From Escherichia coli (GTDB taxonomy: Bacteria; Pseudomonadota; Gammaproteobacteria; Enterobacterales; Enterobacteriaceae): a stretch of 64,000 nt of DNA. Position 1 is the first letter of the stretch. The number at the start of each line of letters is the position of its first letter. Below the pieces are notes generated by a model, which was not told the origin of the DNA, did not search any database, and saw nothing but the letters and a program-made list of their open reading frames with translations. Of this stretch, positions 7,482 to 29,481 are shown one piece after another. Made by a program: the position numbers and the translations under genes. The DNA is taken from the NCBI RefSeq assembly GCF_017348835.2, contig NZ_CP072315.1, one strand, 5' to 3'.

Positions 7482-7484
7482 GCC

Positions 7485-10604: not shown

Positions 10605-10626
10605 CACAGCAACAAAGGAAACAGGT

Positions 10627-11082: not shown

Positions 11083-11104
11083 TCCACATCCCTAAGGGTA
11101 AAAT

Positions 11105-12145: not shown

Positions 12146-12193
12146 TCCCCTGAAGTGTTAACCTGAACAATTACTAATCGAAGAGGTTATTTT

Positions 12194-12772: not shown

Positions 12773-12839
12773 TCGAAAAGTAACTTTTCACCCGGGGCTG
12801 TTAATGCAGCCCTCATTCAACTGTTTGCAGGAGCTAAAA

Positions 12840-13415
12840 ATGGCAGTTTCTCTCGTAAAAGGCGGCAACGTATCTCTGACCAAAGAAGCACCAACCATGA
12901 ATATCGCTATGGTTGGCCTCGGCTGGGATGCCCGTGTAACTGACGGTCAGGCTTTTGACCTGGACGCTTCCGTGTTCGCAGTAGGCGAAGACGGTAAAGT
13001 GCTGTCAGATGCGCATTTCATTTTCTTCAATAACAAAACCAGCCCTGATGGCGCGGTAGAGCACCAGGGCGACAACCGTACCGGTGAAGGCGACGGTGAC
13101 GATGAGCAGGTCAAAATCGATCTGACCAAAGTCTCAGCAGATATCAAAAAACTGGTGTTTGCCGTTACCATCTATGATGCAGAAGCGCGTAAACAAAACT
13201 TCGGCATGGTGAGCAACAGCTTCATGCGCGTTTACAACAACGACAACGGCACGGAAATTGCCCGTTTCGATCTGTCTGAAGATGCCTCAACCGAAACCGC
13301 TATGGTCTTCGGTGAACTGTATCGTCATGGCGCTGAGTGGAAGTTTAAAGCTGTCGGTCAGGGCTTTGCCGGTGGCCTGGCGGCTCTTGCCTCCCAGCAC
13401 GGCGTTAACATCTAA
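12840..13415 (+). CDS. terE: Tellurium resistance protein TerE
   Basis: ATG at 12840 after a GGAG ribosome-binding site gives 191 aa (MAVSLVKGG...), a close paralog of TerD. Confidence 0.85.
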
Positions 13416-13432
13416 AACAACGCTGAATCATA

Positions 13433-13457
13433 CCCCGGCAATGCCGGGGTTTTTTTT
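13433..13457 (+). terminator. Rho-independent terminator after terE
   Basis: Hairpin CCCCGGC-AAT-GCCGGGG followed by eight T residues. Confidence 0.75.
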
Positions 13458-13843
13458 GGTTGCGATCCGCTTTCAGGAGGGAGTAGTAGAAAGGGGACTG
13501 GAAATTTCAGAAAGCAGGTCATGTTAATTCAGACCTGAGCCTTTTAAAGGCAGGAAACGGATTTATCTCTGGTTGCTGGTTAAAGCCGGTATTCCGTGCC
13601 TTTTATCAACAGAATGCCCCTCTGATATATGTTACTTTTGCGGTTTATGAAGGAACGGGATCTGGAACATAAGATACCCGGTCAATCAAAATTCCAGTTC
13701 AACAGGTATAGAAACTTCAGCGTGATGAAATATGGTGTCACACCATATATACGCCTCACCAGAAATCCAGCGTCCTGAACTAAGCCTGGGGAACATATAT
13801 AAGCGCTGCGCTTTAAAAATAATCAAAAATCAGGAGAGTTAAT

Positions 13844-15085
13844 GTGAATCTACAATCCGGACAAAACATACCGCTTCAGCAATCTGCGATCAGGCTGAAT
13901 CTTCAGTACCCTGCCAAATCCGGCTTTAAAGGCGAACCCGATACCTGCCTCTTCCTGCTTAATGCTCAGGGAAAGGTAACCGGCGATTCTGACTTTATCT
14001 TTTATAATAATCTGTCTTCTCCTGAAGGGGCAGTAAAGCTCGTTACCGGTTCTCAGCAGTCCAGCATTGAGATAGCACTGGATCGTGTTCCGGCGAACGT
14101 CAGTAAGATTGCGATCACCGTTGTCATTGATGGTGAAGATACTATCAGTGGGCTCAGTTTATTGAGCATTCAGGCTCCTGGTATCGCTGATTTTCAGGCT
14201 GAGACTCAGGGCCGCAGTGAGAAAGCAATCATCCTGGGTGAAGTATATCGGCACAATGGCGCCTGGAAGCTTCGTGCGCTCGGGCAGGGTTTCAACGGTG
14301 GTCTTGAGCCTCTGGCCATTAGCTTTGGCGTTGATGTCGCACAGCCAGCTCCGCAGCCAGCAAAGCCTGCTCGTATCAGTCTGGAAAAGAAACTTGAAAC
14401 CAGATCTCCGCGCCTCGTAAGCCTCGCTAAAAAAGCCTCGGTCAGTCTCACTAAAAATAAACTGGACACCCTTGAGGCAGCGGTTGCATTTGTACTTGAC
14501 GCATCCGGCTCAATGAGTGGCCAGTTCAGTAAGGGCAACGTTCAGTCTGTGCTGGACCGCATCGCCGTTCTTGCCGCCCAGTTCGACGACGACGGTGAAA
14601 TGGATGTCTGGGGATTTGGAGAGAAGCACAAGAAGTATCCAAACGTCACACTGGACAACCTGGACACATATATTCAGTCCATTCGCGGGTCTGGAAAGCG
14701 TTCAGCCTGGGAGAACCTGCCGGGACTTGGTGGGACAAACAATGAGCCCCCTGTGATGGAAGAAATTGTCGACTACTTTAAGGACTCGAAAATCCCGGTA
14801 TATGTTGTATTTATTACCGATGGCGGGATCAGCAAGACCCGGGCGATTAAAGATGCAATCCGGCGTTCTGCCAACTACCCCATCTTCTGGAAGTTTGTCG
14901 GCCTGGGTGGTTCAAGCTACGGTATCCTCAAAAATCTGGATGACTTTACTGACCGCCGGGTTGATAACACCCACTTCTTTGCCATGGATGATTTCGGTTC
15001 GATCAGCGATGAAAAGTTATATGATAATTTACTGGAAGAATTCAGACCGTGGATCGATGAAACAAAAAGGTTAGGCATCCTGTAA
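13844..15085 (+). CDS. terF: TerF-like protein (TerD domain fused to vWA domain)
   Basis: 413-aa ORF with GTG start after a CAGGAGAG ribosome-binding site; TerD-like N-half and vWA-like C-half (VLDASGSM). Confidence 0.75.
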
Positions 15086-15647
15086 TACGCACAGTTTTCG
15101 CATGGTTAAAGGAGCTCTACAGCAGCTTAATACTGTAGAGCCTTTGTTCACTGGAAATCGTACAGGGAGGAGCATATGGACCGCATCAAGTACCTGAAAT
15201 GGATAGCTGAAGAATCACCAACTGATGATGAAATCGACAACTACGATAGTATCATTAGTCGGGGCGCAGAAAGGGCCGAGAAGGTTCAGTTGTCTTTAAG
15301 ACGTTAATATACGGGAGTTTAAATGTTCGCAGAAATCAAAGATAATTATTCGTTAGGTGGATAAAGAAAGGTTGCCATTACCAGCTTTCGACGAGTCGAA
15401 AATAAAAACCTTATTTATAGTGACAGGGAGTATGAGCTGACGCTTGCCAATGGAACAATAATTAAAAATGTACTTAGAAAAGAAGAGTGGGAACTGTTAG
15501 AAAGCAATTCAATTAAGGTTATATTATAACGAAAATATATTTACAGTTTTGGATAGGTTTCAAACGAGTCCGGACATTTGTACCTGAAGTATCTGACATT
15601 ACAGTTAAGTGACGATTATGCCAGCACGTCTGTTGCTGGCAGCTTAG

Positions 15648-15929
15648 CTATCGGTCTAAAAGCTGATCCATTAATAATTCTTCGTAAAGCCCAGAGGTAT
15701 CGGGCTTTATTACAATATCCGTTATTTCGAAGCGTTCAAGTACAAATTGCAGATATTCCGGAGTAACGTAGTAGGGATCAGGTTCAGCCAGATTAGTATA
15801 GAGTGGGTCTTCTGCTGCATTAATGTCATAATCAATGCACATATGAAACCACTGCAAAGGTGGATCCCAGCCTAACATCACCTGAACAATTCCCTGATTG
15901 CTTTTCACCTCATACCAGTGCTGGCTCAT
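15648..15929 (-). CDS. Hypothetical protein
   Basis: 93-aa ORF, no recognisable motif. Confidence 0.4.
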   Translation of the reverse strand: MSQHWYEVKSNQGIVQVMLGWDPPLQWFHMCIDYDINAAEDPLYTNLAEPDPYYVTPEYLQFVLERFEITDIVIKPDTSGLYEELLMDQLLDR

Positions 15930-15978
15930 ACTTAGTCCTTAAGAAAATTTGTCATCGGAAAATAACACGAAGCCTGCA

Positions 15979-16170
15979 TCATCGAGGCGCATAACCTTCT
16001 TCCCTTAACGCCTGTTGTAATTTATCAACTGCGCTTTTCATTACCCAGGCTTCTTCGTCACTCACAGCACAACCACGTAGATCGCTCCAGCTCAGACGTT
16101 TAACAAATTGAGCAAGGGCCATAGTTTCGTTCTCATCAAGCCGCAAACTCAGTGTCTCAATACCTTCCAC
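15979..16170 (-). CDS. Hypothetical small protein
   Basis: 63-aa ORF. Confidence 0.35.
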   Translation of the reverse strand: MEGIETLSLRLDENETMALAQFVKRLSWSDLRGCAVSDEEAWVMKSAVDKLQQALREEGYAPR

Positions 16171-16261
16171 AATCTAACCTCCCTTATAATGAAAAATGGC
16201 GCTTTACTTCTGACCAGATGCCGAAGCCTTGAATGCAGCCGGAACTGTCGTTGTTTCTACT

Positions 16262-16633
16262 TTACAGAAATGGAATTAAAAAGTGGTGATGCTGGGCACG
16301 TTTCTTTTCCAGCCGGGGTTTAAGCCAGAGCTGAAACTCATTCAACTTCTCAGCAGCCAAAACCGCTTCAACGGGGAAAACTTTATATTTACCCTGTTGC
16401 TGAGGTTCACCCAGCCATCGCCTGATGGCTCCGTCAGTCCATAAACGAGTCTCTTTTAGCCTAGTTACAGTGACCCATTTTCTGGACCATTCATCAAATT
16501 GTCGCTGGCGATCCCGATAACGTTGTTCTTCCTGCTGCCGAAGCCACTCGCGATCAACAGCAAATTTTCGGTATCCAACAAAGAGCCCTTGTACTTTGGC
16601 CATGTCATATTCCGGTTGCTTAGAGTTACTCAT
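16262..16633 (-). CDS. Hypothetical protein (Arg/Gln-rich)
   Basis: 123-aa ORF. Confidence 0.4.
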   Translation of the reverse strand: MSNSKQPEYDMAKVQGLFVGYRKFAVDREWLRQQEEQRYRDRQRQFDEWSRKWVTVTRLKETRLWTDGAIRRWLGEPQQQGKYKVFPVEAVLAAEKLNEFQLWLKPRLEKKRAQHHHFLIPFL

Positions 16634-16936
16634 TCAACCAAAACCTAAACGTCGATACAAACTCTGTTTCATAACCAGGGTTTTATCCTTACCGCGACAG
16701 TAAGTAACAGGGGCTGCATAAACCGGTCATTTAGTCCGTTATGCAAAAATTATTGAGGATCCGGGCTGTTAAACTGTTCTTCCTCTTTCGCTTCCGGTGA
16801 AAAGGGGAGGTGTCACCCTGCGAGCCCGTGTAGTGAAAGGGATTCGTCGTAATACAGGCCAAAGGCTAACATGACCGCAAAGGACGCCCGGGCGACCGGA
16901 TACCTGCCGGGTTGTGCGATGTAAAATCCGGAAGCA

Positions 16937-17368
16937 GTGATAACACAAACAGGCCCCTACAGCGTAAGGATTGTGATGGACGATAAAGAGCAGTTTACGA
17001 ATCTTGTGGCAAAGCATGCCTCCGGACTCACCGAAGAGCAGCTGGCCGGGTACGATGCCTGTTCCCTGGATGGTGAATGCGTCACGCCTTCATACGAGGT
17101 TTTCCGGGGGTATCGTACCCGCCACACACTGGATGAATTTCTGGAGATGGCCATATCGCTGAATGCCATCCACCCGGATGAATATTTAACGGATATGCTG
17201 CTGAAGCCTCATGAGGTGATCGGCGCTCTGGCCGATGAAGGCGACCAGCTGAACAACGCCACCCCGGTTTATTTCTTTCCGGATACCGGCGTCTATGCAG
17301 CGGCCGTTAGTGAAACCCGGGTGCTCGATGCCTGGCTTTGCTGGCCATGCTACCCGGCGAACTGGTAA
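16937..17368 (+). CDS. Hypothetical protein
   Basis: 143-aa ORF. Confidence 0.4.
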   Translation: MITQTGPYSVRIVMDDKEQFTNLVAKHASGLTEEQLAGYDACSLDGECVTPSYEVFRGYRTRHTLDEFLEMAISLNAIHPDEYLTDMLLKPHEVIGALADEGDQLNNATPVYFFPDTGVYAAAVSETRVLDAWLCWPCYPANW

Positions 17369-17439
17369 CGCGGCCGTTGGAATTGCACCGGCCGGATACG
17401 AATTTAACCGATCCCGTGGCGGGAAGGCTATCAGAGTTG

Positions 17440-17685
17440 CATGTCCTCATCCCTCAAGCCCCCTGCCAGGCCCCAACGTGCTGTCAGGCTTCGCCTGATT
17501 CCCGATCTGCGCCGATACTTCAGCCGATAACTTTTTGTTTTCTTTTTATTTTCTTCCCATTTCCTCAAAAATCGCGGGCGGCGTGGACAGGGCACCATTG
17601 CCGCATGTGGGGTCTTAATAAGGGCAGGGTGGTCAGTTTTGCTCGATGCCATGGGTAGGCCCTCCCCTTCATGGGATGAGGACAT
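17440..17685. repeat. Pair of perfect 15-bp inverted repeats flanking a non-coding segment
   Basis: GCATGTCCTCATCCC at 17440-17454 and its reverse complement GGGATGAGGACATGC at 17671-17685. Confidence 0.6.
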
Positions 17686-17840
17686 GCAAGTAAGCTAACT
17701 ATCTGAAATGACGAAGGTTCATTTGGTGAATGTCGCTTCATATTAATGTTGTGTCACTTATGATCGTATGTAGCTGGTTGCAAAGAGGAGCGATGAGACA
17801 ATAAAGTTGTATCGCTAACAAGATTTATGCTGCCACATAG

Positions 17841-17940
17841 TAACAGCCTAAAAGTTGTACGCCCTATTTAACAGCTTTTAGGCTGTTAATTTGATATTAC
17901 AGCTTTTAGGGTGTATGTTTAGGAAACAGCCTGCAAGGTG
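17841..17940 (+). promoter_or_regulatory. Four iterated operator-like motifs upstream of hipB
   Basis: ACAGC(C/T)TNNAAG-like motif at about 17842, 17871, 17899 and 17926, partly palindromic. Confidence 0.45.
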
Positions 17941-17968
17941 TATCAGAGGAAACTACTGAGGCCAGCTT

Positions 17969-18265
17969 ATGATCAATAATGATTACCCGTTAAACACGCT
18001 CAACCAGCTGCGTCCCTTGCTCATTGGTTTTCGCAAGGCGAATGGCCTGACGCAAAAAGACCTGTCCGAAAGGTTAGGCGTCACTCAACAGACATACTCA
18101 CGTCTGGAAGCCAACCCTGCCAGTGCGAGCATTGAACGGCTATTCAAGGTGTTTTCCATCCTGGGCGTAAAAATCAGCTTCTCCTCGGCAACCACCTCTT
18201 CAGAGAGGAAGCAGACGGAAGAAATGCTTAAATCAAACTCACCTGCACGACAGGAGGATTGGTAA
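17969..18265 (+). CDS. hipB: HipB-like HTH (XRE-family) antitoxin
   Basis: 98-aa ORF with HTH segment (LTQKDLSERLGVTQQTYSRLE) directly upstream of the hipA-like gene. Confidence 0.75.
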   Translation: MINNDYPLNTLNQLRPLLIGFRKANGLTQKDLSERLGVTQQTYSRLEANPASASIERLFKVFSILGVKISFSSATTSSERKQTEEMLKSNSPARQEDW

Positions 18266-18269
18266 CGAT

Positions 18270-19595
18270 ATGAGCCGGAAACAGCAACGTCTGGTAATTT
18301 GGATGAACGGCATCAAAGTCGGGTACTGGGAAAAAAGCAAAGGGGTAGACAGCTTAGAATACCTTCCTGAATGGGTTGCTGACGAACAGGGAAGGCCGCT
18401 GTCATTGTCCCTTCCTTTTACTCCCGGGAACCAGGTCTGGCGTGGAAATGTGGTACGTGACTATTTTGATAATTTACTGCCGGACAGCGAAGGCATACGC
18501 AGACGTCTGGCAATGCGTTACAAGGCCGATAGCCTGGAGCCTTTTGATCTGCTGACGGAGCTGGGAAAAGACTGCGTGGGCGCGATACAGCTGCTTCATG
18601 ACGGAGATGAACCCACTGATTTATATTCCGTGAAGTATCACCCGCTTACTGAATCAGAAATTGCGGCAACTTTGCGTAATACCACGGAGACATTGCTACC
18701 GGGCAGGCCAGAAGATAACGACGACTTACGTTTATCTATTGCCGGTGCTCAGGAGAAAACAGCCCTACTGTGGCATGAAGATCGGTGGTGTATGCCGGAG
18801 GGTAATACACCAACGACGCATATATTCAAGCTACCGCTCGGACTTGTGGGGAACATGAAAGCCGACATGAGCTCGTCGGTTGAAAATGAATGGCTCTGCT
18901 CGGTACTTCTCGGCCAGTACGGGCTCCCCGTGGCAAGAACGCAGATTGCTCACTTTGAAGATCAGAAAGCGCTGGTGGTAGAACGTTTTGACCGAAAATG
19001 GTCAGGAGACGGACAATGGATCATTCGTTTACCCCAGGAGGATATGTGTCAGGCCCTGGGCGTTTCGCCATTACGAAAATATCAGGCGGACGGCGGGCCA
19101 GGTATATCGGAAATTATGGAGGTTCTGAGTAATTCAGACCGTGCTGAGCGTGACAAAGCGCAGTTTTTTATGACGCAGATAATTTTCTGGATGATGGCCG
19201 CAACAGATGGCCACGCTAAAAATTTCAGTATTTCTATTGGGCCACAGGGACGTTATCACCTTACACCAAACTATGATGTGTTGTCGGCATGGCCGGTGAT
19301 CGGTCATGGGAACAATCAGATATCCTGGCAGAAGTGCAAACTGGCGATGGCCGTACGTGGCAGTAGCAACTATTACCAGATATATCGAATACAACGACGC
19401 CACTGGATCAGGCATGGTGAGATAACCGGCCTGAGTAAACAGCAGACAGAGGCGATGATAGAGGAAATCATCGCCAGAACCCCGGGTGTCATTGAACGTG
19501 TTAGCGGGCTTCTTCCGGACCAGTTCCCCCAGCAGCTTGCGGAAAGTATTTTTGATGGAATGAGGCAGCAATGCAGGCGCCTGGCTGAGAAATGA
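18270..19595 (+). CDS. hipA: HipA-like Ser/Thr kinase toxin
   Basis: 441-aa ORF, 4 nt after the hipB stop; N-terminal HipA-like coupling region and kinase-like core. Confidence 0.75.
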   Translation: MSRKQQRLVIWMNGIKVGYWEKSKGVDSLEYLPEWVADEQGRPLSLSLPFTPGNQVWRGNVVRDYFDNLLPDSEGIRRRLAMRYKADSLEPFDLLTELGKDCVGAIQLLHDGDEPTDLYSVKYHPLTESEIAATLRNTTETLLPGRPEDNDDLRLSIAGAQEKTALLWHEDRWCMPEGNTPTTHIFKLPLGLVGNMKADMSSSVENEWLCSVLLGQYGLPVARTQIAHFEDQKALVVERFDRKWSGDGQWIIRLPQEDMCQALGVSPLRKYQADGGPGISEIMEVLSNSDRAERDKAQFFMTQIIFWMMAATDGHAKNFSISIGPQGRYHLTPNYDVLSAWPVIGHGNNQISWQKCKLAMAVRGSSNYYQIYRIQRRHWIRHGEITGLSKQQTEAMIEEIIARTPGVIERVSGLLPDQFPQQLAESIFDGMRQQCRRLAEK

Positions 19596-19655
19596 CAGCC
19601 GCAATTTATAGTGTGCATGTTTTCAGAATAGCTGATGTAAGCGTGAGGATTCAGT

Positions 19656-19862
19656 ATGACTGAAGAACAAAAAAGAATAGAGCGGGCTATTGAGTTGGCT
19701 TGTCGTTACGGCGGAACCGATGAAATGCATCATCTGCAATGGGTCGTGGATCAGATGGTAAGAGAACTTGCTGGAGAACGTTATGCACAGATTGTAGCTG
19801 ATGCCACCAGCGGAGAAGATGGGCCTGATACTTACAAATGGAGTGTTGGGATCGCGCCTTAA
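19656..19862 (+). CDS. Hypothetical small protein
   Basis: 68-aa ORF. Confidence 0.35.
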   Translation: MTEEQKRIERAIELACRYGGTDEMHHLQWVVDQMVRELAGERYAQIVADATSGEDGPDTYKWSVGIAP

Positions 19863-19963
19863 CAGCTGTCGGTCTGGGGGTGAAAACGTATTCTTCATTC
19901 AGCGAATTCCCAGGCTTCACATTAAGACTAAAGCGGCGGCCGCAGTAACGTAAGAGAAAATAA

Positions 19964-20374
19964 ATGGCTATTTTAGCAATCATTGCAGTTATCGCCCTGG
20001 GTGGGTACGCCTACGGATTTATTAAAACCCGTGAGCTGAGCGCTTTGCGTAAAGAAATGAAACTATACGTGGATCGCATGGAAGCGGCGGAGCTGGACTT
20101 ACACGCAATCAGAAGTGTAGCGGAGCACCGGTTGCACGGTGCAGGTAAACAGTTTGCCGACCTTTACAGCCGTATCGACGGTGCAACTGTGACGCTGACA
20201 CCCGAAGATCAGCTGTTACTGGCAACGATGCCATTTAATATTCAGGATGTAGAAGACATCGTAAACGAGCGCGGTCCAAAGACAATTAGCGGCCGTCCAT
20301 TCTGGGAAGTTGAGCCAGGCCCGCATGATTATGAATATGGCCCGCAATATCCGTATTTCCCAGACCAGCGCTAG
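19964..20374 (+). CDS. Hypothetical membrane-anchored protein
   Basis: 136-aa ORF with N-terminal hydrophobic helix; ends 12 nt before the HNH gene. Confidence 0.45.
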   Translation: MAILAIIAVIALGGYAYGFIKTRELSALRKEMKLYVDRMEAAELDLHAIRSVAEHRLHGAGKQFADLYSRIDGATVTLTPEDQLLLATMPFNIQDVEDIVNERGPKTISGRPFWEVEPGPHDYEYGPQYPYFPDQR

Positions 20375-20386
20375 GAAGAGATCAAG

Positions 20387-21202
20387 ATGAGAGAGCCAAG
20401 ACCACGCCATACCTTGCAGGTCATTCGTGTACCTTCTCTGGAGGTTCAGGACCTGGGGCTGACCAGCTTTGATAGCTGGCTTGACGAGCACGGGTATGAC
20501 AAAACGAATGCCAGAAATAACCGTACCATCTGGGCGAGAGAAGGCGGATGGCATCTGAAACGTTGCAGAAATCTTGAAACTGGCACGGACGATTTCTGGT
20601 TTATCGCTTTCGATGGTAAAGGCGGGAAGATTTACCCGCTGAAAACCCAAAGAGACTACCGGGCTGCATATCGTAAGCTGGAAGCAGAAGGTTATGCGCC
20701 TGCGGTCATCGAGCAAATGACCACAGGCGCAGCATATAACCTGGCCTATCCACGTTCCATCCTAAAACAAGCTGAGACGGCCACCAGCGAGCCAATTCGG
20801 AAACCTGACGTAGATATCCAGGGTGAGCACTGCGAGCGCGTAGTGACGCAACGTAGTGGCGTGGCACAGGGTAAATTCAAAGCTCTGCTCATCGAGAATT
20901 TCGCAGGCCGTTGTGCGGTAACCGGTTGGGTTAATGGAGGTGTCCTGGATGCGGCACACATTGAACATGGAACCCGGTACAATCCGTCTAATGGCATCCT
21001 GATGACTCCAACAATGCATGCGCTGTTTGATGCCGATCTTATGGGCATAGATCCGGCCACCCTGACCGTTCATTTTAAGCCAGGCATTGAGGTGGGCGAG
21101 CTGTTTGAAGGCCGTAAAATCACACCGCTGGTGTACGATCTGGACTTAGAGCGGCTGGCCGTACGCTGGGCAGAATACCAGGGCCTTGCTCAGGACCAAT
21201 GA
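20387..21202 (+). CDS. HNH-family endonuclease
   Basis: 271-aa ORF with HNH-like C-terminal motif (CAVTGW ... LDAAHI ... NGILMTPTMHALFD). Confidence 0.65.
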   Translation: MREPRPRHTLQVIRVPSLEVQDLGLTSFDSWLDEHGYDKTNARNNRTIWAREGGWHLKRCRNLETGTDDFWFIAFDGKGGKIYPLKTQRDYRAAYRKLEAEGYAPAVIEQMTTGAAYNLAYPRSILKQAETATSEPIRKPDVDIQGEHCERVVTQRSGVAQGKFKALLIENFAGRCAVTGWVNGGVLDAAHIEHGTRYNPSNGILMTPTMHALFDADLMGIDPATLTVHFKPGIEVGELFEGRKITPLVYDLDLERLAVRWAEYQGLAQDQ

Positions 21203-21485
21203 AGGGTGACAGCCAGGTTGTGCCTAAACCTGGCAGTAAAACCTGCATGCCACAAACCTTTAAATTCTGACTCAAGAGCCTGGCACAAGATAAAAGCGAA
21301 ATGAAAAGGTTAAAACCGGTGCACCAGACCTCTTAGGTTTAATACCTGAGCCAGTATACTGGCAGTCTCAGGTAAGTGGGTATCATACACTTCAGAAATA
21401 TCCACACCGAGATAACCGCAACAGTTAAAGGGTGATGCTGCCAACTTACTGATTTAGTGTATGATGGTGTTTTTGAGGTGCTCCA

Positions 21486-21761
21486 GTGGCTTCTGTTTCT
21501 ATCAGCTGTCCCTCCTGTTCAGCTACTGACGGGGTGGTGCGTAACGGCAAAAGCACCGCCGGACATCAGCGCTATCTCTGCTCTCACTGCCGTAAAACAT
21601 GGCAACTGCAGTTCACTTACACCGCTTCTCAACCCGGTACGCACCAGAAAATCATTGATATGGCCATGAATGGCGTTGGATGCCGGGCAACCGCCCGCAT
21701 TATGGGCGTTGGCCTCAACACGATTTTCCGCCATTTAAAAAACTCAGGCCGCAGTCGGTAA
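21486..21761 (+). CDS. insA: IS1 InsA
   Basis: 91-aa [40 protein letters not shown]... Confidence 0.9.
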
Positions 21762-22183
21762 CCTCGCGCATACAGCCGGGCAGTGACGTCATCGTCTGCG
21801 CGGAAATGGACGAACAGTGGGGATACGTCGGGGCTAAATCGCGCCAGCGCTGGCTGTTTTACGCGTATGACAGGCTCCGGAAGACGGTTGTTGCGCACGT
21901 ATTCGGTGAACGCACTATGGCGACGCTGGGGCGTCTTATGAGCCTGCTGTCACCCTTTGACGTGGTGATATGGATGACGGATGGCTGGCCGCTGTATGAA
22001 TCCCGCCTGAAGGGAAAGCTGCACGTAATCAGCAAGCGATATACGCAGCGAATTGAGCGGCATAACCTGAATCTGAGGCAGCACCTGGCACGGCTGGGAC
22101 GGAAGTCGCTGTCGTTCTCAAAATCGGTGGAGCTGCATGACAAAGTCATCGGGCATTATCTGAACATAAAACACTATCAATAA
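21680..22183 (+). CDS. insB: IS1 InsB (expressed as an InsAB' frameshift fusion)
   Basis: 167-aa ORF overlapping insA in the -1 frame. Confidence 0.85.
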
Positions 22184-22226
22184 GTTGGAGTCATTACCGG
22201 AGAATTGTATCATTAACAGTCTAGTT

Positions 22227-22892
22227 CTAACGACTACCACTTTTAAGTATGTATTGAGCCAGTTTTATATTCAGGCACACCATATTGCACTCTAGCTCTT
22301 TCATCATTCTTGAAGAACTCTTAATTAAGTATTCTTCAAGTGGGCCAGCATATGCCCCTGATGTCACGATCGTTAGTTGCGTAAGAGGATGAGTCAAACT
22401 CTCAATGCCCTTCAGGATGTCATTCTGGACAGCAGCAATATAAACAGGCGAAGCCGCAATCAAATATTCATCATTCGGGCTGGACTGCATTAACTGGCTT
22501 ATAGTTGCGCAACGGTTATGCTTACCTAGTGATTTTGTGATGGCTTTCCACCAGAGATCATGCCTGAATGGTACTTGATGAAATGTCGCCTCGTAAGAGG
22601 GCACCCGATCTCGACTATTTAAAAACCCCATCCCGGCAGAGATTATCCACAACTCCAGATTTCTGGTTGAGTTTAAAATTTCCTTTGCCGTAGACCAGTG
22701 ATTACCTGAATACAAGGACAATGCCGGTACCGCCTGATTACTTCTGGCGTCGTCTACAATGTTACTCCAGGCATATGCTGCGTCGTCCGGGGTTTGTTTT
22801 GGATCTATGTCCAATGTCGGCCAGACGTGGCCCTGATGATTCTTGCCCTTTGTACAGGAAGTGATTAAGTGTACTGAGCGTTCAGAGAACAT
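22227..22892 (-). CDS. Hypothetical protein
   Basis: 221-aa ORF, second gene of a two-gene minus-strand unit. Confidence 0.45.
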   Translation of the reverse strand: MFSERSVHLITSCTKGKNHQGHVWPTLDIDPKQTPDDAAYAWSNIVDDARSNQAVPALSLYSGNHWSTAKEILNSTRNLELWIISAGMGFLNSRDRVPSYEATFHQVPFRHDLWWKAITKSLGKHNRCATISQLMQSSPNDEYLIAASPVYIAAVQNDILKGIESLTHPLTQLTIVTSGAYAGPLEEYLIKSSSRMMKELECNMVCLNIKLAQYILKSGSR

Positions 22893-22949
22893 TATCTTCC
22901 TTACATACCCATAGAACAGCTTTCTAAGAACGGTGGGCTCGCCTGAAAA

Positions 22950-23330
22950 TTACAAATCAGCCCCTTTCACGGCATCATTTTGATTCTTCGCGTCTGCCCC
23001 CAGTAAGATGACCGGTTTTCTGCATGACAGTGTTATTCCTAACAAACGCAACACAAAACCACGCCAGCCAGAGCAAATTTTTTCATTTGCTGCGTAAAGC
23101 CTATTGTTTTCTCTTTTAAGCTTCGCCCACTCGTTACAGAGGGTAACATCATCAAGCGCTGTTATATGCTTCGCCTCACCTTCGACGATAACGGTATGGA
23201 TACCGTATGCTGTAAATCTCATACTATTTTCCAGAACCCAGTTGCGGTATTCGTCGAGTCCACCTTCGGAACCGGTAGCTCTGCGCCACATTTCAATTTG
23301 CTTGTGTGATGGGTCAAGTGTACTTGTCAT
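22950..23330 (-). CDS. Hypothetical protein
   Basis: 126-aa ORF, first gene of the unit, downstream of a palindrome-rich leader. Confidence 0.45.
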   Translation of the reverse strand: MTSTLDPSHKQIEMWRRATGSEGGLDEYRNWVLENSMRFTAYGIHTVIVEGEAKHITALDDVTLCNEWAKLKRENNRLYAANEKICSGWRGFVLRLLGITLSCRKPVILLGADAKNQNDAVKGADL

Positions 23331-23972
23331 TGAAGCCTCGTCTCAGCGATAACGCTTGAAATAGCCCGCTTTGGTCATCATGAAATTAGCCATCTGACTG
23401 GCGATTTGATTGTATCTTACTCATAGTGCCCTACCTATAGGTTAAAAAGGGGCATTTTCGCTTTATAGCGTGTTCAGCAGCATCAATCCTCCCAAGAAAG
23501 GCTGGCTTATTAAGCCGGTCCATCATTTTCTGTATATCTCTCATCAATTTTTATATCCGCCCTGGAGTGCACCGTTCAAGCACACCGATTAGGCAGATAG
23601 TCACTAGTTAACTCTTTACTAGTGACTAAATTCCATTGATATACGTGACAACGTCACGTCATGAAAGCTTATAAATGCCTATTTTTCATACAATGGGATT
23701 TAATTAGGAGTAAATCCCATAGGCTTACATAAGGATGACAATTAAAAGCGTTAAATATCAACCAGATAGAATGATTACCCCCAATTAATGGGCTCATCAC
23801 ATTATTTCACTGGCTGGGGTTATTGCTGGCATATCTGAAAGTGCTAATATGTTAGTCATTAGTAATTAGTAAAGCCTTTACTAAACGCGTTTCTACGTAA
23901 ATTCTATAGGTTTTATAGTGTCCTACCTTTGCTCAAATCAAAATGTTCTGACATACCAAAATGGAGTGTAAA

Positions 23973-24791
23973 ATGACTCAAAACCAGGGTTCTGAGCCAG
24001 TACCGGCGAGCCGGACAGGGCAGCTCATCAGCGCCCGGGATATGGCCATGCAGAAATTCGAAGAAGGGATGCGGTTAATCTCGGAAGCGTCGGAACTGTG
24101 CGGTCTCTCTCTCTTCACCAGCAGAATTATGCAGCCCAACGCATTTGGTCTTCCGTCGTCACTGGATCGCACCATCGAGGAGGGGCGTAAGGAAATTGAC
24201 CGTAAAACGTGGAAAAGGCTCTTTGAAGAAACAGGTATGGACCGGTACTGGAACCATAAGCAAAAAGAAGCCTTTAACGAATCCCTTCGTACGGATCCGC
24301 CCGTCGCTTCCCTGGAGATTGTTAAGGGAACATTACAGCATGCACTGGCTAACAGACGAGACACCCTTGCAGAAGGTTTCGTTGATGTTCTCAACAAGCT
24401 TGACCGAAGTTTCAAAAGCAATGCCAGGCAATATACAATGCCAAAAAAGCTTGTTCTTCGGGGGATTTTTCCTGGTGTGAACGTGCTGAGGTACAACGGT
24501 TTCTCGCAGGACAATCACTTTTGTTTACGCGACTTTGAGAATATTGTATGCATCTGTTCTGATACTCCAACACCTGCAACCGGCGGTGGGCTGAGTATGG
24601 TCGACAGGCTGACGGCCATGAGAAATACAGAATTCACAGGCGAGGTCAGTGATGAGAATGGCTGGCGGTGTCGCCTGTTTGAGAATGGAAACGTTCATAT
24701 TTGCATCGACAGTATCTCGCTTCTGAATGCTCTGAACGATCTTATCAGCATATATTTTGCAAACCAGCTTCCGGCCGCAGGAAAAAAATGA
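23973..24791 (+). CDS. Hypothetical protein
   Basis: ATG at 23973 has a GGAGTG ribosome-binding site (track ORF starts at 23961); stop overlaps the next gene's start (ATGA at 24788-24791). Confidence 0.5.
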   Translation: MTQNQGSEPVPASRTGQLISARDMAMQKFEEGMRLISEASELCGLSLFTSRIMQPNAFGLPSSLDRTIEEGRKEIDRKTWKRLFEETGMDRYWNHKQKEAFNESLRTDPPVASLEIVKGTLQHALANRRDTLAEGFVDVLNKLDRSFKSNARQYTMPKKLVLRGIFPGVNVLRYNGFSQDNHFCLRDFENIVCICSDTPTPATGGGLSMVDRLTAMRNTEFTGEVSDENGWRCRLFENGNVHICIDSISLLNALNDLISIYFANQLPAAGKK

Positions 24792-25993
24792 TGATTGAAA
24801 ATGATAAAGAAAAAAGCCTGAACGATGCTACCCCGCCAGAGGTGCAGAATGACATCCGCAGCGAATCCACTGAAAAATCAAAGGAAATGGGTCGTTCAAG
24901 GTACTCATCTATCGCGATGATCGATTACTTCAATGCAATCGAACGTCTGTGCAAAGAGAAAGAAATTAACCCGGAAAATATCGATCTGAGCTTCAAAGTT
25001 CACTGGCTCAGAAACGCTGTTGGCGGCTCGTTTGCAAGGTCACAGGAGATGTTCGCGGAGTACCAGAAGTATGTTAAAGAGGTTCCTGAAGAGGCCCGTT
25101 ACCTGGATATACCCGATGAGGTAAAGGTTGCACTCGGCGATATTATCTCGTACATCACCTGGCACTACCGTAGAAGCTATACCGCAATACAGAATGATAG
25201 TGTTAAAAAAGCTGAAGCACGTAGCATGCAGCTGGAGGAGGAGGTAACGCAGCTGTTACAGCGGCTTGAGCAAAGCGCTACCGATATGGATGAGCTGAAA
25301 CTTGAGAATCAGGCACTACAGGGTCGATTAGAGATCCGGGACAGTACCGTCAAGGAGTTAGAAACAAGGCTGAATGTTGCCGAAGCAGAACTCGAAACCT
25401 GCCATCACCAGTTAGATAGCACACGGCATGAATTGAGCCTCGCACAGCAGTCAAATGACTCACTCTCCCAGCAACTGGCTGAACGTAAAACAGAGATCGC
25501 TGGTCACCTTGAATATCAAAAAAAGCTGAACGAAGAGATCAACACGCAGCGTTCTGATAACGCCGGTCTTTCCAGACAATGCGACCAGTTAAGTCAGACT
25601 GTGTCAGATACAAAGGCAGAGAGGGACAGGTTTGAACAGGAATTGATTGCTGCACAGAACCTTTGTACTGAGCTGAAAAGTGCACTGTCCGGGAAAGAGG
25701 GTGACCTGGTGGCGGTGAATGCCGAGCTTACTGAACTCCATAAACTAAACGAGTCGCTGAGCGCCGACCTGAATAAAGTAACTTTGGTCAGCCAGGGCTA
25801 TGAAGCGGAAGTGGCTGAACAAAGCAATGAACTCAAAACGCTCCAGGCCAAAGTAATGAAGCTGGAAGCTACCCTGGAGGCGGAGAAAACAATCTCAGAA
25901 TCCCTAAAAGGCACCATTGATACATTAACTGGTGCAATGGCAGGGGGAGGTACTGGAAAGTCAAAACAGCCGCGTAGCAGAAAAACATCATGA
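24788..25993 (+). CDS. Coiled-coil protein (KfrA-like architecture suspected)
   Basis: About 401 aa from ATG 24788; about 150-aa N-terminal domain then a long heptad-rich Glu/Leu/Gln/Lys helical region. Confidence 0.5.
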   Translation: MMIENDKEKSLNDATPPEVQNDIRSESTEKSKEMGRSRYSSIAMIDYFNAIERLCKEKEINPENIDLSFKVHWLRNAVGGSFARSQEMFAEYQKYVKEVPEEARYLDIPDEVKVALGDIISYITWHYRRSYTAIQNDSVKKAEARSMQLEEEVTQLLQRLEQSATDMDELKLENQALQGRLEIRDSTVKELETRLNVAEAELETCHHQLDSTRHELSLAQQSNDSLSQQLAERKTEIAGHLEYQKKLNEEINTQRSDNAGLSRQCDQLSQTVSDTKAERDRFEQELIAAQNLCTELKSALSGKEGDLVAVNAELTELHKLNESLSADLNKVTLVSQGYEAEVAEQSNELKTLQAKVMKLEATLEAEKTISESLKGTIDTLTGAMAGGGTGKSKQPRSRKTS

Positions 25994-26056
25994 TAAATGA
26001 AGCCAGGTTGATACACTTCTCTGCATCCCCTGGCACATAAGAACTTCTGCGGACAT

Positions 26057-26260
26057 TCAGCCCGTCCGCAGGAGTTTTCGTCCTTCAGTCAACAAATGCA
26101 CTACCTTTTTTGAGTCTCCACTTTCCAGAGCAGAAAACACGTTACCGATTCTACCAACAGCTTGTATCTGAGTGATAACCCCAGTCTTGTAATCATCTAG
26201 GATCCCTGACAGGAAAGCGTTCAGTTTTGTCTGTTCGCTTAGCGAAAGCATGTAGGACAT
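26057..26260 (-). CDS. Hypothetical small protein
   Basis: 67-aa ORF immediately downstream of the 439-aa gene. Confidence 0.35.
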   Translation of the reverse strand: MSYMLSLSEQTKLNAFLSGILDDYKTGVITQIQAVGRIGNVFSALESGDSKKVVHLLTEGRKLLRTG

Positions 26261-26272
26261 TTTTTCTCCATT

Positions 26273-27592
26273 TTAAGCAGGTGTGTCAGTTGAAAGAGGT
26301 TTGCGTGATTCTGGAAAATGAGGCAGCACCATAGTTTCAGATGCTGTGGTCGCATCCCAGTGCCACCATCCATAAGGCCCATATTCACGGTTGTAATAAT
26401 CTTTTTTGAGTTGCTTTCGGGCCAGATAAGCAGGAGTGGCCATACCAAATACTTCCATCGGGAACGGCTTATCGCTTTTTGTGTCGAGCAGGTAGAAGTC
26501 AGGGAACACCTCACTAATACTCGCATCATAACGCATGGGCTTAACGTACTGCCGGTGCTCTGCATCCAGCTTTTCTGCAACAACCGCCTCATAGGAGGAG
26601 TCCAGAGGTATCCAGTTCTCGCTAACGTGCATCAGCACAATTTGATGAGCTCTTACAGAAGGGCCTCTGCCGGTTACCACAGCTGGTGACGTCAACGCAA
26701 AGACAACTATTTTCGCCCCGGATTTCCATGCTGCGTACTCCGATGAAAATCGTTTCTTTACGCTATCCCAATGGACTTCTGAATTGAAAAAAATCAGCGG
26801 TAGCCCCCCAAAATTCCGCAGGGGTAAAAATTTAAGTGGCTTCTCATGCTTTTCAGCATCGTAGCGAGGTAAAACTGACAGGAGCATGAGACGTTTATCA
26901 CTCATCGCCTGTGATGAAAGACGCTGAATTTGCGACTGAGCGACAGGTTGTTTCGGGTCAGGTACACCAATGAATAAATGGTCACCTATGCAGGCTCTGC
27001 CGGTACGAATTTGTTTAGCGGTTTCAAGCAGACGATACCGTACCAGTGAATCGTTACGTTTCCCTGCCATTTTCGGGTACCAGACATTCAGACCAGACTC
27101 TGTCCACAAAAGACTAAGCAAGCCCAGGAGGGTCATTGAGGCCTGACCTCCTTCTGGTCGCTGAACATGGGGCAGGGGAGGCACTTCTGATTTTTCAGGA
27201 GGATCTTTCTCTGTCATACCGATACCGAGCCTTACAGCCATATCACCTTCGGTTGTAATCCGGACCACACCACTCGCATATCCTTTCAGGCCGGTATGCC
27301 GGGCATCAAGGGAGAAGAATACACAGGAAGGATCATGCTCAATGCCCGTGTTAGCGGCTTTGACGAGAATAAAGGCATCACCGTTCGGTAAAGCACGAAC
27401 ATAAAGTCGCTTTTCTCCTTTTCCACGACATCCGCAGGTGATGACTGATTTTTGACCTGAGGTGTGGTGTGCCTTTTTAAGAGCCGACTGCCACCCTTTA
27501 GCAAACTCATCCTGCGTTTGAAAGTCAGGTGAATACCTTTTGACGTTTGGATCGTCGTCGTAAGCAATCATCACTGCGAATTTTTGGCTCAT
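26273..27592 (-). CDS. Hypothetical 439-aa protein with Cys/His-rich N-terminal region
   Basis: Long ORF co-oriented with and downstream of the C5-methyltransferase gene; CGCRGKG and HDPSC motifs; no recognised catalytic signature. Confidence 0.55.
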   Translation of the reverse strand: MSQKFAVMIAYDDDPNVKRYSPDFQTQDEFAKGWQSALKKAHHTSGQKSVITCGCRGKGEKRLYVRALPNGDAFILVKAANTGIEHDPSCVFFSLDARHTGLKGYASGVVRITTEGDMAVRLGIGMTEKDPPEKSEVPPLPHVQRPEGGQASMTLLGLLSLLWTESGLNVWYPKMAGKRNDSLVRYRLLETAKQIRTGRACIGDHLFIGVPDPKQPVAQSQIQRLSSQAMSDKRLMLLSVLPRYDAEKHEKPLKFLPLRNFGGLPLIFFNSEVHWDSVKKRFSSEYAAWKSGAKIVVFALTSPAVVTGRGPSVRAHQIVLMHVSENWIPLDSSYEAVVAEKLDAEHRQYVKPMRYDASISEVFPDFYLLDTKSDKPFPMEVFGMATPAYLARKQLKKDYYNREYGPYGWWHWDATTASETMVLPHFPESRKPLSTDTPA

Positions 27593-27616
27593 AGTAGTCT
27601 CCTAAACAGGAAGTTT

Positions 27617-27784
27617 AATATCCCAACCAGAGCAACACTTCCTGAGCGTCATACTGTTCCTTTACGCCCATGTCGCTAAAGAATTCTTCGAAATCTGTTT
27701 CGGGAACGCAATGCCTGGACAGTTCTTGTAATGCTCGTTCTTTAGATACCGTCTCACCTTCAGCTGATTCGAAATACGTCATGG
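27617..27784 (-). CDS. Hypothetical 55-aa acidic protein
   Basis: ATG at 27784; MTYFESAEGETVSKERALQELSRHCVPETDFEEFFSDMGVKEQYDAQEVLLWLGY; lies between the methyltransferase and the 439-aa gene; not in the ORF track (below 60 aa). Confidence 0.3.
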
Positions 27785-27842
27785 TTGACCTCTGACATTA
27801 TTACAACAATCTTAAGCATTTAAATTGATGAAGGAGCTCAGG

Positions 27843-29270
27843 TCAGCTGACTTCGTCGTAAAACTGCCGCAAGCGCTGGGAGGCTGCAAATTCAATTCGT
27901 GACTTCAGCAGTTTGGCGACGGCCGCAAAGACATCAACGACCACGGAGTTCCCAAACTGTCTGTAAGCCTGTGTATTGGACACAGGGATACGGAAAACAC
28001 TTTCCCCGGGTTTATCGAAGCCCATTAGCCTGCTGCATTCACGTGGCGTTAGCATGCGTGGCCGACGGTCCATGTTGTATGTGTTATGGAAATCAGTTTC
28101 TCCCAGTTCATGAGACCAGCCCCGATCAATAAGAATTTCAGATCCGTCTTTCATATAGCGGCTTGAGAGGGTTCTGGTGACACTATTAACATTGGAAGGA
28201 TCTACTAGTCCAAAACCAAAACCATTGCCTTTTGCCGCATGTTTCTTTGCATAGTTGTATAAGTACTCCCAGAGTTTAGGGGAGAGGATGTATTTACTAT
28301 CTACGCTCGGATCCAGTAAATCTGAGAGAGAAGGGCGCTTGTCCGGATAAAAGTCTTTAATGTCTCTCAGAGTAAAACCGTCTTTCAGACGTAGGTCGCG
28401 GCGAAAACCAATAAGGACGATACGTTCACGGTGCTGGGGTCGGAAATGACGGCCATCGATGACTTTAGGATCATCCGCGCCCGTGCTTTCGCTGTTTGCG
28501 ACGTCGTAGCCAAGCTCATCGAGCGTTTTCATGATGATGTTAAAGGTATTACCCTTATCGTGACTCTTCAGATTTTTTACGTTTTCCAGAACAAAAATTG
28601 CAGGTTGTTTTGCCCGGATGATCCTGGCCACATCAAAGAAGAGCGTACCCTGAGTGTCGCACTCGAAACCGTGTTTGCGACCCATAGAGTTCTTTTTACT
28701 GACACCGGCGATGCTGAATGGCTGGCATGGAAATCCCGCAAGAAGAACATCATGATCCGGGATAGAGGCATCGATAAATTTGTATGCCTCGTCATCAGTA
28801 ACCTCGGGCCGGTTGCTAAGAGTGATGTCACGGATGTCTGAATTGAAGCGGTGCTCGTTCTCATCGCAATACCAGTTCGCCCGGTAAGTACGGCTGGAAT
28901 AAGTATTCCATTCGCTCGTGAAAAGACATTTACCACCGATGGCATCAAATCCGCTTCGCAGTCCACCTATCCCTGCAAACAGATCGATAAAGCTAAAGTG
29001 CCTGTCCTCATAATCAGCAGGTCGTGAAGGTATTAAAGTCTGTAGATAGCGTCCATCTGCGATACTCAGCTCACAATGCTCAGGTATGCATGTAACCTGA
29101 CGTTTAAGGGATGCACGGGACCAATTACTGCCATTTTCATCATTTAATACCTGAGCCAGATATTTCAGGTCATAAATGGTCGAAGCTGTTAACAAAGTTT
29201 TGTGGATCAGAGATGGTGTTTTATCCACATCATTCAGGTCTGTCTCAAGATCATGAGTGTAACGTTTCAT
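27843..29270 (-). CDS. DNA (cytosine-5)-methyltransferase, Dcm-like
   Basis: C5-MTase motifs I ([10 protein letters not shown]), IV (GFPCQPFS), VI (ENV) and X (QFGNSV); likely ATG at 29270 (about 475 aa), alternative GTG at 29312. Confidence 0.85.
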
Positions 29271-29481
29271 CCAAACTCTCTCAGGAATAATATCTTTGAG
29301 ATAGATTAACACGCTTAATTTGGATTATTTTTTGGTTCAGGTTCTAAATTTATTGTGATTATTCTGCCTTTAAGTTGCAAAAAGATTGGTTTTAAGCCCG
29401 CCCATGAAATAATGACTTGTTAAAATACTGCCTGTAAATAGGCTTGTGGATACATGTCTGTACTCAACAAATCAAGGTGAA

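What the first reader, a model, noticed from the sequence alone, without database searches (positions are those of the whole stretch)
19964..21202. Membrane-anchored protein coupled to an HNH nuclease with an unknown N-terminal domain
A 136-aa protein with an N-terminal hydrophobic helix ends 12 nt before a 271-aa HNH endonuclease whose first about 150 residues have no obvious homology. Small HNH proteins with novel sensor domains are frequent in defence islands. The gene is bounded downstream by IS1.
Basis: inference. Interest (0 to 1): 0.45.

Follow-up and report, generated by a model that had tools for sequence, protein, structure and literature searches.

The report
Plasmid HNH nuclease with unknown front domain
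A DNA-cutting enzyme found on IncHI1 and IncHI2 drug-resistance plasmids joins a familiar restriction-type HNH nuclease to a small front domain that matches no known family or fold, while the membrane protein next to it is only an unrelated neighbour.

Summary
The sequence features are real. A 136-aa membrane-anchored ORF (19964-20374) ends 12 nt before a 271-aa HNH_2 nuclease (20387-21202), and IS1 starts 228 nt downstream. The window is IncHI2 plasmid backbone, 100% identical to pAMSH1.

The proposed two-gene unit is not supported:
- HNH orthologues at 79-80% identity (IncHI1 plasmids) and 37-42% identity (integrative islands) never have the 136-aa gene nearby.
- Homologues of the 136-aa gene (44-85% identity) on F-like plasmids, a chromosome and a phage-like contig never have an HNH neighbour.
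- About one in eight sampled plasmid hits are IncHI2 alleles with the nuclease cut at residue 143. In the one such plasmid examined, the 136-aa gene is intact.

The nuclease has two domains:

Most likely this is a stand-alone sensor-plus-HNH nuclease with Type IV-like logic and an unknown trigger. Its recurrent neighbour, a second HNH_2 paralogue, was lost here in an IS1-associated deletion. Interest is modest.

The parts
19964..20374 (+). p136: a 136-aa protein with an N-terminal membrane anchor (aa 1-20), a helical or coiled-coil-like middle and a conserved Pro/aromatic-rich C-terminus (RGPKTIxGRPFWEVEP...YEYGPQYP). It belongs to a small enterobacterial mobile-element family of unknown function. 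It is a neighbour of the nuclease, not a conserved partner.
   Evidence: contexts; lineage restriction
20375..20386 (+). 12-nt spacer containing a purine-rich Shine-Dalgarno-like GAAGAG. No terminator-like site lies between the two genes, so co-transcription on IncHI2 is plausible.
20387..20761 (+). N-terminal domain (NTD) of the HNH protein, aa 1-125. The predicted order of elements is beta-beta-alpha-alpha-beta-beta-alpha-alpha-alpha. pI is 9.1, with 15 aromatic residues. Invariant residues include W31, Y37, D38, W49, W55, H56, W71 and Y91. No known family or fold matches. This is the proposed sensor or targeting domain.
   Evidence: (pLDDT 88.3, pTM 0.81)
20762..20851 (+). Inter-domain linker, aa 126-155. 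It is predicted disordered (pLDDT below 60), acidic, and less constrained than the domains (dN/dS 0.21).
20852..21202 (+). C-terminal HNH_2 nuclease domain, aa 156-271 plus the stop codon. It starts with the QxxF helix and carries H191, N202, H211 and D215. It is followed by a conserved C-terminal extension that is structurally equivalent to the TagI and VcaM4I catalytic domains.
21431..22198 (+). IS1 (IS1B-like), 768 bp, with no target-site duplication. Homology to IS1-free IncHI2 plasmids stops exactly at 21430, so IS1 marks a deletion of the downstream 141-aa, 102-aa and second HNH_2 genes.
17969..19862 (+). Upstream same-strand genes hipB, hipA and a 68-aa ORF. Together with p136 they form an IncHI2-specific block, which replaces different genes found upstream of the HNH orthologue on IncHI1.

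Best explanation
The 271-aa protein is a stand-alone, two-domain DNA endonuclease that belongs to the backbone shared by IncHI1 and IncHI2 plasmids.

Its C-terminal HNH_2 domain is the cutting module. It is of the same structural clade as the Type IV modification-dependent restriction enzymes TagI and VcaM4I, which dimerise through this domain.

Its N-terminal ~125-residue domain is a previously undescribed, basic, aromatic-rich alpha/beta domain. I infer that it recognises a feature of foreign DNA, most likely a non-host base modification or an unusual DNA structure, and licenses cleavage through a flexible linker. On this reading the plasmid-carrying cell attacks incoming phage or rival-element DNA.

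Shown here: domain architecture, intact catalytic residues, structural kinship of the nuclease half, purifying selection, restriction to mobile elements, and dispensability.
Inferred: DNA sensing by the N-domain, modification dependence, and a defence or competition role.

The adjacent 136-aa membrane-anchored protein is an independently mobile gene that happens to lie upstream on IncHI2. It is not part of the mechanism.
For: Nuclease half:
- HNH_2 match above Pfam's gathering score.
- An HNH-family profile hits VcaM4I (6yex) at E 1e-7, aligning H191, N202, H211 and D215 to VcaM4I H224, N241, D250 and D254. H224, D250 and D254 are the residues whose mutation cripples VcaM4I (PMC7897488).
- H191, N202, H211 and D215 are invariant in 15 homologues.

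N-domain:
- It folds confidently on its own (pLDDT 88.3, pTM 0.81).
- It is as constrained as the nuclease (dN/dS 0.074 against 0.055).
- It is basic (pI 9.1).
- Among 1.84 billion representative proteins, its convincing matches (8 at E<=1e-30, 19 at E<=1e-10) are short fragments or fusions to HNH_2.
- Close relatives of the nuclease half carry different, equally unannotated N-domains, which is the modular swapping typical of sensor-nuclease restriction enzymes (PMC6765204).

Context:
- All contexts seen are mobile elements: IncHI1 and IncHI2 backbone, and islands with integrases, Fic/Phd or hipBA.
- The gene is dispensable. About 5 of 40 evenly spaced plasmid hits are IncHI2 alleles cut at residue 143; in the one examined (L022) a Tn3-family/IS4321 insertion follows the break.
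- No methyltransferase is adjacent.
Against: - No experiment exists for this protein or any N-domain relative. No paper in the searchable library mentions it.
- Some HNH_2 proteins lacking a reader domain are plain nicking enzymes, for example ScoA3III.
- The hosts are Dam+ Dcm+ enterobacteria and the plasmid carries its own C5-cytosine methyltransferase about 7 kb away. The commonest methyl marks are therefore unlikely targets.
- AFDB-scale fold libraries were unavailable, so a structural relative outside PDB and BFVD cannot be excluded.
Confidence: 0.5

Rival explanations
1. Modification-independent nuclease serving plasmid biology. On this reading the N-domain is a sequence- or structure-specific DNA-binding domain, or a protein-docking domain. 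The enzyme nicks or cuts particular DNA, such as rival plasmids, recombination intermediates or incoming unmethylated DNA, without reading base modifications.
For: The N-domain has no similarity to any known modification reader. HNH_2 enzymes such as ScoA3III are nicking enzymes with 2-3 bp specificity and no reader domain. Longer N-domain-HNH relatives carry very basic N-terminal extensions and sit next to a NikA-like gene on an integrase-bearing element.
Against: The three closest solved relatives of the catalytic half are all modification-dependent enzymes with the same domain order. No cognate methyltransferase or immunity gene accompanies the nuclease. An unregulated, modification-independent nuclease would need another way to spare host DNA.
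Confidence: 0.27
2. The nuclease normally works with the second HNH_2 paralogue (HNHb, 285 aa, with a different N-domain) encoded 0.6-1.6 kb downstream on IncHI1 and IS1-free IncHI2 plasmids. They could act as a heterodimer or as a two-specificity pair. On this reading the window holds only half of the system, because IS1 deleted the rest.
For: HNHb orthologues (53-55% identical between lineages) follow the HNH271 orthologue in IncHI2 (L001), IncHI1 (L021) and the related loci L007-L012. TagI/VcaM4I-type HNH domains dimerise through the nuclease domain. One relative, P0165, is a single chain of N-domain, HNH and a second HNH.
Against: The 42% and 37-38% identical relatives in islands L003-L006, L018 and L020 have no second HNH gene nearby. 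The window lineage (at least 260 plasmids covering >=80% of the 16-kb stretch) keeps HNH271 intact without HNHb. HNHb itself is often truncated: 604 of 1137 hits are full length. The second HNH of P0165 is not specifically HNHb-like. Both genes lie on shared IncHI backbone, so their adjacency may simply be inherited.
Confidence: 0.12
3. One reading: p136 and the HNH protein form a two-gene defence or abortive-infection unit. A membrane-anchored partner would sense infection or restrain the nuclease.
For: The genes are on the same strand with a 12-nt gap and no terminator-like site between them, so they are probably co-transcribed on IncHI2. The pair is found in roughly a thousand IncHI2-type plasmids.
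Against: Each gene occurs without the other in every diverged relative examined. IncHI1 plasmids keep the nuclease without p136, so p136 is not a needed antitoxin. An IncHI2 plasmid with the nuclease cut at residue 143 still has p136 intact, and another plasmid shows the same pairing of hits (H76 and H115). The thousand co-occurrences are copies of one plasmid lineage at 95% identity or more, not independent events.
Confidence: 0.06
4. Selfish homing-type HNH endonuclease that spreads its own gene.
For: HNH nucleases include many homing enzymes. Distant relatives of the catalytic half occur in Salmonella, Vibrio and Pantoea phages.
Against: The domain is HNH_2 of the TagI/VcaM4I clade. No other Pfam domain, including any homing-endonuclease DNA-binding module, is detected. 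The gene is free-standing, in a fixed syntenic backbone position in both IncHI1 and IncHI2. It is not inside an intron, an intein or another gene.
Confidence: 0.05

Closest known systems
[quoted passage not shown]
   Different: TagI's N-domain is an SRA (PUA-superfamily) 5mC reader. The N-domain here shows no SRA similarity by sequence or fold. Sequence identity in the aligned part is only 16%.
VcaM4I (PDB 6yex), an EVE-HNH endonuclease of the TspA15I group
   Different: VcaM4I has an EVE domain with a flipped-base pocket and a helical linker. Here the N-domain is unrelated and the linker is predicted disordered. The third catalytic position is His here and Asp in VcaM4I.
EcoKMcrA (PDB 6ghc) and ScoMcrA-type HNH Type IV enzymes
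   Different: The catalytic domain is more distant and the N-terminal domain is unrelated. A weak NCBIfam hit to the phosphorothioate-dependent restriction family (13.9 bits against a cut-off of 180) covers only the HNH core.
ScoA3III-like HNH_2 enzymes without a reader domain (PMC6765204)
   Same: It is an HNH endonuclease with no recognisable modification reader. That it belongs to the HNH_2 family is my assumption; the paper does not state it.
   Different: ScoA3III is described as a frequent nicking enzyme. Whether the protein here is modification-independent is unknown, and it has a conserved, folded N-domain under strong constraint.

Membership tests
HNH_2 (PF13391) beta-beta-alpha-Me nucleases | Profile match above Pfam's gathering score | tested here: met
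   30.5 bits against a cut-off of 21, residues 176-222
HNH_2 (PF13391) beta-beta-alpha-Me nucleases | Catalytic His, Asn, His (or Asp) plus Asp residues present | tested here: met
   H191, N202, H211 and D215 are invariant in 15 homologues. They align to VcaM4I H224, N241, D250 and D254.
HNH_2 (PF13391) beta-beta-alpha-Me nucleases | Beta-beta-alpha fold similar to solved members | tested here: met
Type IV modification-dependent restriction endonucleases (sensor-HNH fusions of the TagI, VcaM4I and McrA type) | N-terminal accessory domain joined by a linker to a C-terminal HNH in one polypeptide, with no cognate methyltransferase | tested here: met
   AF2 model: domain 8-120, low-confidence linker 124-155, HNH 158-265. 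No adjacent methyltransferase; the nearest is about 7 kb away.
Type IV modification-dependent restriction endonucleases (sensor-HNH fusions of the TagI, VcaM4I and McrA type) | Sensor domain belongs to a recognised modified-base reader class (SRA, EVE, YTH, PUA, the McrA N-domain, SBD, winged helix, DUF3427) | tested here: not met
Type IV modification-dependent restriction endonucleases (sensor-HNH fusions of the TagI, VcaM4I and McrA type) | Cleavage or restriction depends on a DNA modification | not testable with these tools
   This needs phage plaquing assays and in vitro digests on modified against unmodified DNA.
Type IV modification-dependent restriction endonucleases (sensor-HNH fusions of the TagI, VcaM4I and McrA type) | Homodimer formed through the HNH domains | not tested
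   No multimer prediction was available. The conserved C-terminal extension (P223, H229, E241, W261) is present.
Two-gene defence system (membrane partner plus nuclease effector) | Conserved co-occurrence of the two genes across diverged lineages | tested here: not met
   No p136 homologue lies near HNH orthologues at 79-80%, 42% or 37-38% identity. No HNH lies near p136 homologues at 44-85% identity. PLSDB counts agree.
Known anti-phage systems in PADLOC-DB v2 | Full-length match to a system component model | tested here: not met
   The only hit is PDLC04132 'HNH' at E 2e-8, covering residues 127-223 (the catalytic core). p136 has no hit.
HNH homing endonucleases | A homing-type HNH with accessory DNA-binding modules, and a location in an intron, an intein or an intergenic phage site | tested here: not met
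   Only HNH_2 was detected. The gene holds a fixed syntenic backbone position in IncHI1 and IncHI2.

The most novel reading that the evidence does not exclude
The ~120-residue N-terminal domain is a new class of DNA-feature reader, for example for a hypermodified phage base. It is found only fused to HNH_2 nucleases on enterobacterial mobile elements. If so, the globally spread IncHI1 and IncHI2 multidrug-resistance plasmids would carry a previously unrecognised single-gene Type IV-like restriction system that shapes which phages or rival elements can enter their hosts. On plasmids that still have the second HNH_2 paralogue, the two nucleases might give a dual-specificity pair.
Probability: 0.3. 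Interest if true: 0.5.

Novelty: new variant of a known kind. Interest (0 to 1): 0.3.

Why it matters
IncHI1 and IncHI2 plasmids are major carriers of multidrug, colistin (mcr) and typhoid-associated resistance. If this backbone nuclease restricts phages or competing DNA, it would affect phage therapy and plasmid ecology in Enterobacteriaceae.

If the N-domain reads a DNA modification, it would add a new reader fold to the small set used as epigenetic tools. The finding is still incremental. Sensor-plus-HNH single-gene restriction enzymes are a well-established kind, many HNH_2 proteins carry unannotated N-domains, and the more unusual claim of a membrane-coupled two-gene system does not hold.

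Tried and rejected
- Two-gene unit. Rejected after tblastn of p136 against 24 loci and PLSDB counts.
- Remote homology of the N-domain. All of these gave nothing significant:
  - Pfam on the protein and on 12 family members at E<=10; the best was BTRD1 at E 0.035.
  - NCBIfam, PADLOC and PHROGs.
  - A PDB profile search; the best was eL43 at E 0.66.
  - Foldseek against BFVD; best E 0.06.
- AFDB50 was not installed, so that search could not be run.
- N-domain hits to giant Big_9/cadherin adhesins (E down to 6e-10, multiple stretches). I judged these to be repeat-amplified noise, not homology.
- p136. No family, PDB or defence-model hit.
- Paralogy between p136 and the small gene upstream of the second HNH. 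No similarity was found.
- Rfam scan of 15000-24000. No RNA family was found.
- Promoter and terminator scans were not above shuffled expectation.
- Literature. Nothing was found on this protein, its accessions, or HNH genes of IncHI plasmids. The END-nuclease and CMoRE papers describe unrelated sensor domains.
- hipBA link. A hipBA cassette 86% identical in DNA lies next to a 37%-identical N-domain-HNH-HNH gene in a chromosomal island. Because the flanking 188-nt segment is also shared, I read this as common descent of a mosaic segment, not as independent evidence of functional coupling.

Full report
**What is there.**
The window is backbone of a large IncHI2/IncHI2A conjugative plasmid. The 1.7 kb around the finding is 100% identical to many E. 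coli plasmids of about 210-370 kb, and a match is found in 284 of 5426 complete E. coli genomes. A 16-kb stretch is 100% identical to pAMSH1 and other IncHI2A plasmids of E. coli and Salmonella.

IS1 lies at 21431-22198. RefSeq annotates them as 'hypothetical protein' and 'HNH endonuclease signature motif containing protein'.

Both genes evolve under strong purifying selection:
- dN/dS is 0.078 for the HNH gene against its IncHI1 orthologue, with 0.074 for the N-domain, 0.055 for the nuclease and 0.21 for the linker.
- dN/dS is 0.11-0.16 for the 136-aa gene against three homologues.
- dS is near saturation, so the ratios are approximate.

**The 136-aa protein.**
It has a single very hydrophobic segment at residues 1-20, followed by a K/R-rich stretch. 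This predicts an N-out, C-in inner-membrane anchor with a cytoplasmic body. It belongs to a small family confined to enterobacterial mobile elements (35 clusters), with a conserved helical middle and a conserved Pro/aromatic C-terminus. No Pfam, NCBIfam, PADLOC, PHROG or PDB match exists.

**The pairing is not conserved.**
I fetched loci encoding diverged relatives of each gene.
- HNH orthologues at 79-80% identity (L007-L012, and the IncHI1A plasmid p10068, L021), at 42% (L003-L006, beside an integrase) and at 37-38% (L018-L020, L023) have no p136 homologue within 5-7 kb (tblastn).
- p136 homologues sit in four different settings, none with an HNH neighbour:
  - 62% identical, next to SRAP on an IncFII-like plasmid.
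  - 82% identical, next to a KAP NTPase on a 450-kb contig that is probably chromosomal.
  - 85% identical, after traI and scsC on an F-like plasmid.
  - 44% identical, on a phage-like contig.
- In PLSDB the HNH protein hits 1608 plasmids: 1085 at 95% identity or more and 211 at 60-90% (the sampled full-length ones are IncHI1). p136 hits 1141 plasmids, all at 90% or more.
- Five of 40 evenly spaced HNH hits are IncHI2 alleles that end at residue 143. In the one examined (L022) a Tn3-family/IS4321 insertion follows the break and p136 is intact. A second plasmid, NZ_OX442404.1, shows the same pairing of a cut HNH hit and a 99.2% p136 hit.

So the nuclease is tolerated without p136, and p136 is kept without the nuclease. 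That argues against a toxin-immunity or sensor-effector pair. On IncHI2 the block hipB-hipA-68-aa ORF-p136 replaces different genes that lie upstream of the HNH orthologue on IncHI1.

**What IS1 did.**
Homology between the window and the IS1-free IncHI2 plasmid pMCR1-PA stops exactly at 21430, and IS1 has no target-site duplication. In pMCR1-PA the nuclease is followed by a 141-aa protein with a hydrophobic N-terminus, a 102-aa CxxC protein and a second HNH_2 protein (HNHb, 285 aa). HNHb is 27% identical to the C-half of the first nuclease and has an unrelated N-half. HNHb orthologues (53-55% identical) also follow the nuclease on IncHI1 and in L007-L012. The recurrent neighbour is therefore a second HNH_2 paralogue, and the window lineage has lost it. 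HNHb is itself often truncated in IncHI2.

**The nuclease half.**
- Residues 176-222 match HNH_2.
- A family profile finds one PDB sequence, VcaM4I (6yex, E 1e-7). H191, N202, H211 and D215 align to VcaM4I H224, N241, D250 and D254. H224, D250 and D254 are the residues whose mutation most reduces VcaM4I activity.
- These four residues are invariant across 15 homologues.
- The AlphaFold2 model (27-sequence alignment, mean pLDDT 82.6) shows two well-predicted domains joined by a low-confidence linker at 124-155.
- The three best matches are all single-chain Type IV modification-dependent restriction enzymes with an N-terminal reader and a C-terminal HNH.

**The N-terminal domain.**
An exhaustive HMMER scan of 1.84 billion representative proteins with residues 1-155 found only 27 hits at E<=1e-3. 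The convincing ones are short fragments or fusions to HNH_2: P0017 (285 aa), P0161-P0164 (464-540 aa, with long basic N-terminal extensions) and P0165 (N-domain plus two HNH_2 domains).

Twelve members share 23 invariant positions, rich in Trp, Tyr and Gly. The domain is basic, with pI 9.1.

**Most likely mechanism.**
By architecture and by the kinship of its catalytic half, the protein most likely works like the TagI and VcaM4I class. A sensor domain binds a distinguishing feature of foreign DNA, and an HNH dimer then cuts.
- Shown: architecture, intact active site, fold kinship, constraint on both domains, exclusive fusion of the N-domain to HNH_2, carriage on mobile elements, and dispensability.
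- Inferred: that the N-domain binds DNA, that it reads a modification, and that the role is defence or competition.

Dam and Dcm marks, and the plasmid's own C5-methyltransferase sites, are unlikely targets, because the plasmid lives stably in such hosts (inference). Overall confidence is about 0.5.

The main rival (0.27) is a modification-independent, sequence- or structure-specific nuclease serving plasmid biology. Cooperation with HNHb (0.12), the membrane-coupled two-gene model (0.06) and homing (0.05) follow.

**Novelty and verdict.**
No paper in the searchable library describes this protein, its accessions, or any HNH gene of IncHI plasmids. The nuclease is a new variant of a known kind: a sensor-HNH single-gene nuclease with an undescribed N-terminal domain. 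It is notable mainly because it is shared backbone of the clinically important IncHI1 and IncHI2 plasmids. Many HNH_2 proteins carry unannotated N-domains, so a specialist would not be very surprised. The more unusual claim, membrane coupling, fails. Interest is 0.3.

Noticed in passing
L001 13832-19593 (pMCR1-PA); absent from the window to the right of 21430: IS1-free IncHI2 plasmids carry three genes downstream of the nuclease: a 141-aa protein with a hydrophobic N-terminus, a 102-aa CxxC protein and a second HNH_2 nuclease (285 aa, different N-domain). The second nuclease also follows the orthologue on IncHI1. The window lost all three in an IS1-associated deletion. The second nuclease is itself truncated in many IncHI2 plasmids (604 of 1137 hits are full length).
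   Followed up: yes
window 22227-22892 (-): A solitary DpdC-like (DUF6884) gene lies immediately right of IS1 (PADLOC DpdC E 4e-59; Pfam DUF6884), with no other Dpd genes seen nearby. A DUF6884 gene is also on IncHI1 (L021), and another lies beside a p136 homologue on an IncFII-like plasmid (L013).
   Followed up: partly
window 17270-17457 and 17841-19601; L023 5924-6111 and 7938-9691: The hipBA cassette is 86% identical in DNA, and a 188-nt segment upstream is 81% identical, to a chromosomal island downstream of the cysJIH genes. There they flank a gene for an N-domain-HNH-HNH protein (P0165) that is only 37% identical to the window's nuclease, plus a lipoprotein. P0165's first 37 residues are a read-through of that 188-nt segment. 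It is unclear whether this reflects mosaic common descent or a recurrent hipBA-nuclease association.
   Followed up: partly
L022 4001-4429 (pKM42_1 and similar IncHI2 plasmids): About 5 of 40 evenly sampled plasmid hits are IncHI2 alleles of the nuclease that end at residue 143. In L022 the remaining N-domain fragment lies beside an IS4321 and Tn3-family transposon, and p136 is intact.
   Followed up: partly
window 20459-20635 (aa 25-83 of the nuclease); proteins P0172-P0176: The N-domain gave multi-stretch HMMER hits (E 6e-10 to 1e-5) to repeats of giant adhesin-like proteins; the one scanned against Pfam (P0172) is Big_9/cadherin-rich. This is probably repeat-amplified noise, but it was not resolved.
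   Followed up: no
window about 23961-30000: This stretch holds a cluster of unexplained backbone genes: DUF4942, a 401-aa hypothetical protein, DUF1173, an orphan C5-cytosine methyltransferase (about 27843-29270, minus strand) and a thermonuclease-family gene. The orphan methyltransferase limits what a modification-dependent nuclease on the same plasmid could target.
   Followed up: no
window 1-15100: This stretch holds the ter (tellurite resistance) cluster with its ATP-grasp, PRTase, StiP and vWA companions. On R478 this cluster has long been linked to phage inhibition and colicin resistance (a reference cited). It lies about 5 kb upstream of the finding.
   Followed up: no
L016 5001-5411; L013 5001-5405; L014 5001-5369: Homologues of the 136-aa membrane protein sit at the end of an F-like tra operon (after traI and scsC), near IncFII repA and traX, and on a phage-like contig. 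The protein therefore looks like an independently mobile small gene of unknown function.
   Followed up: partly
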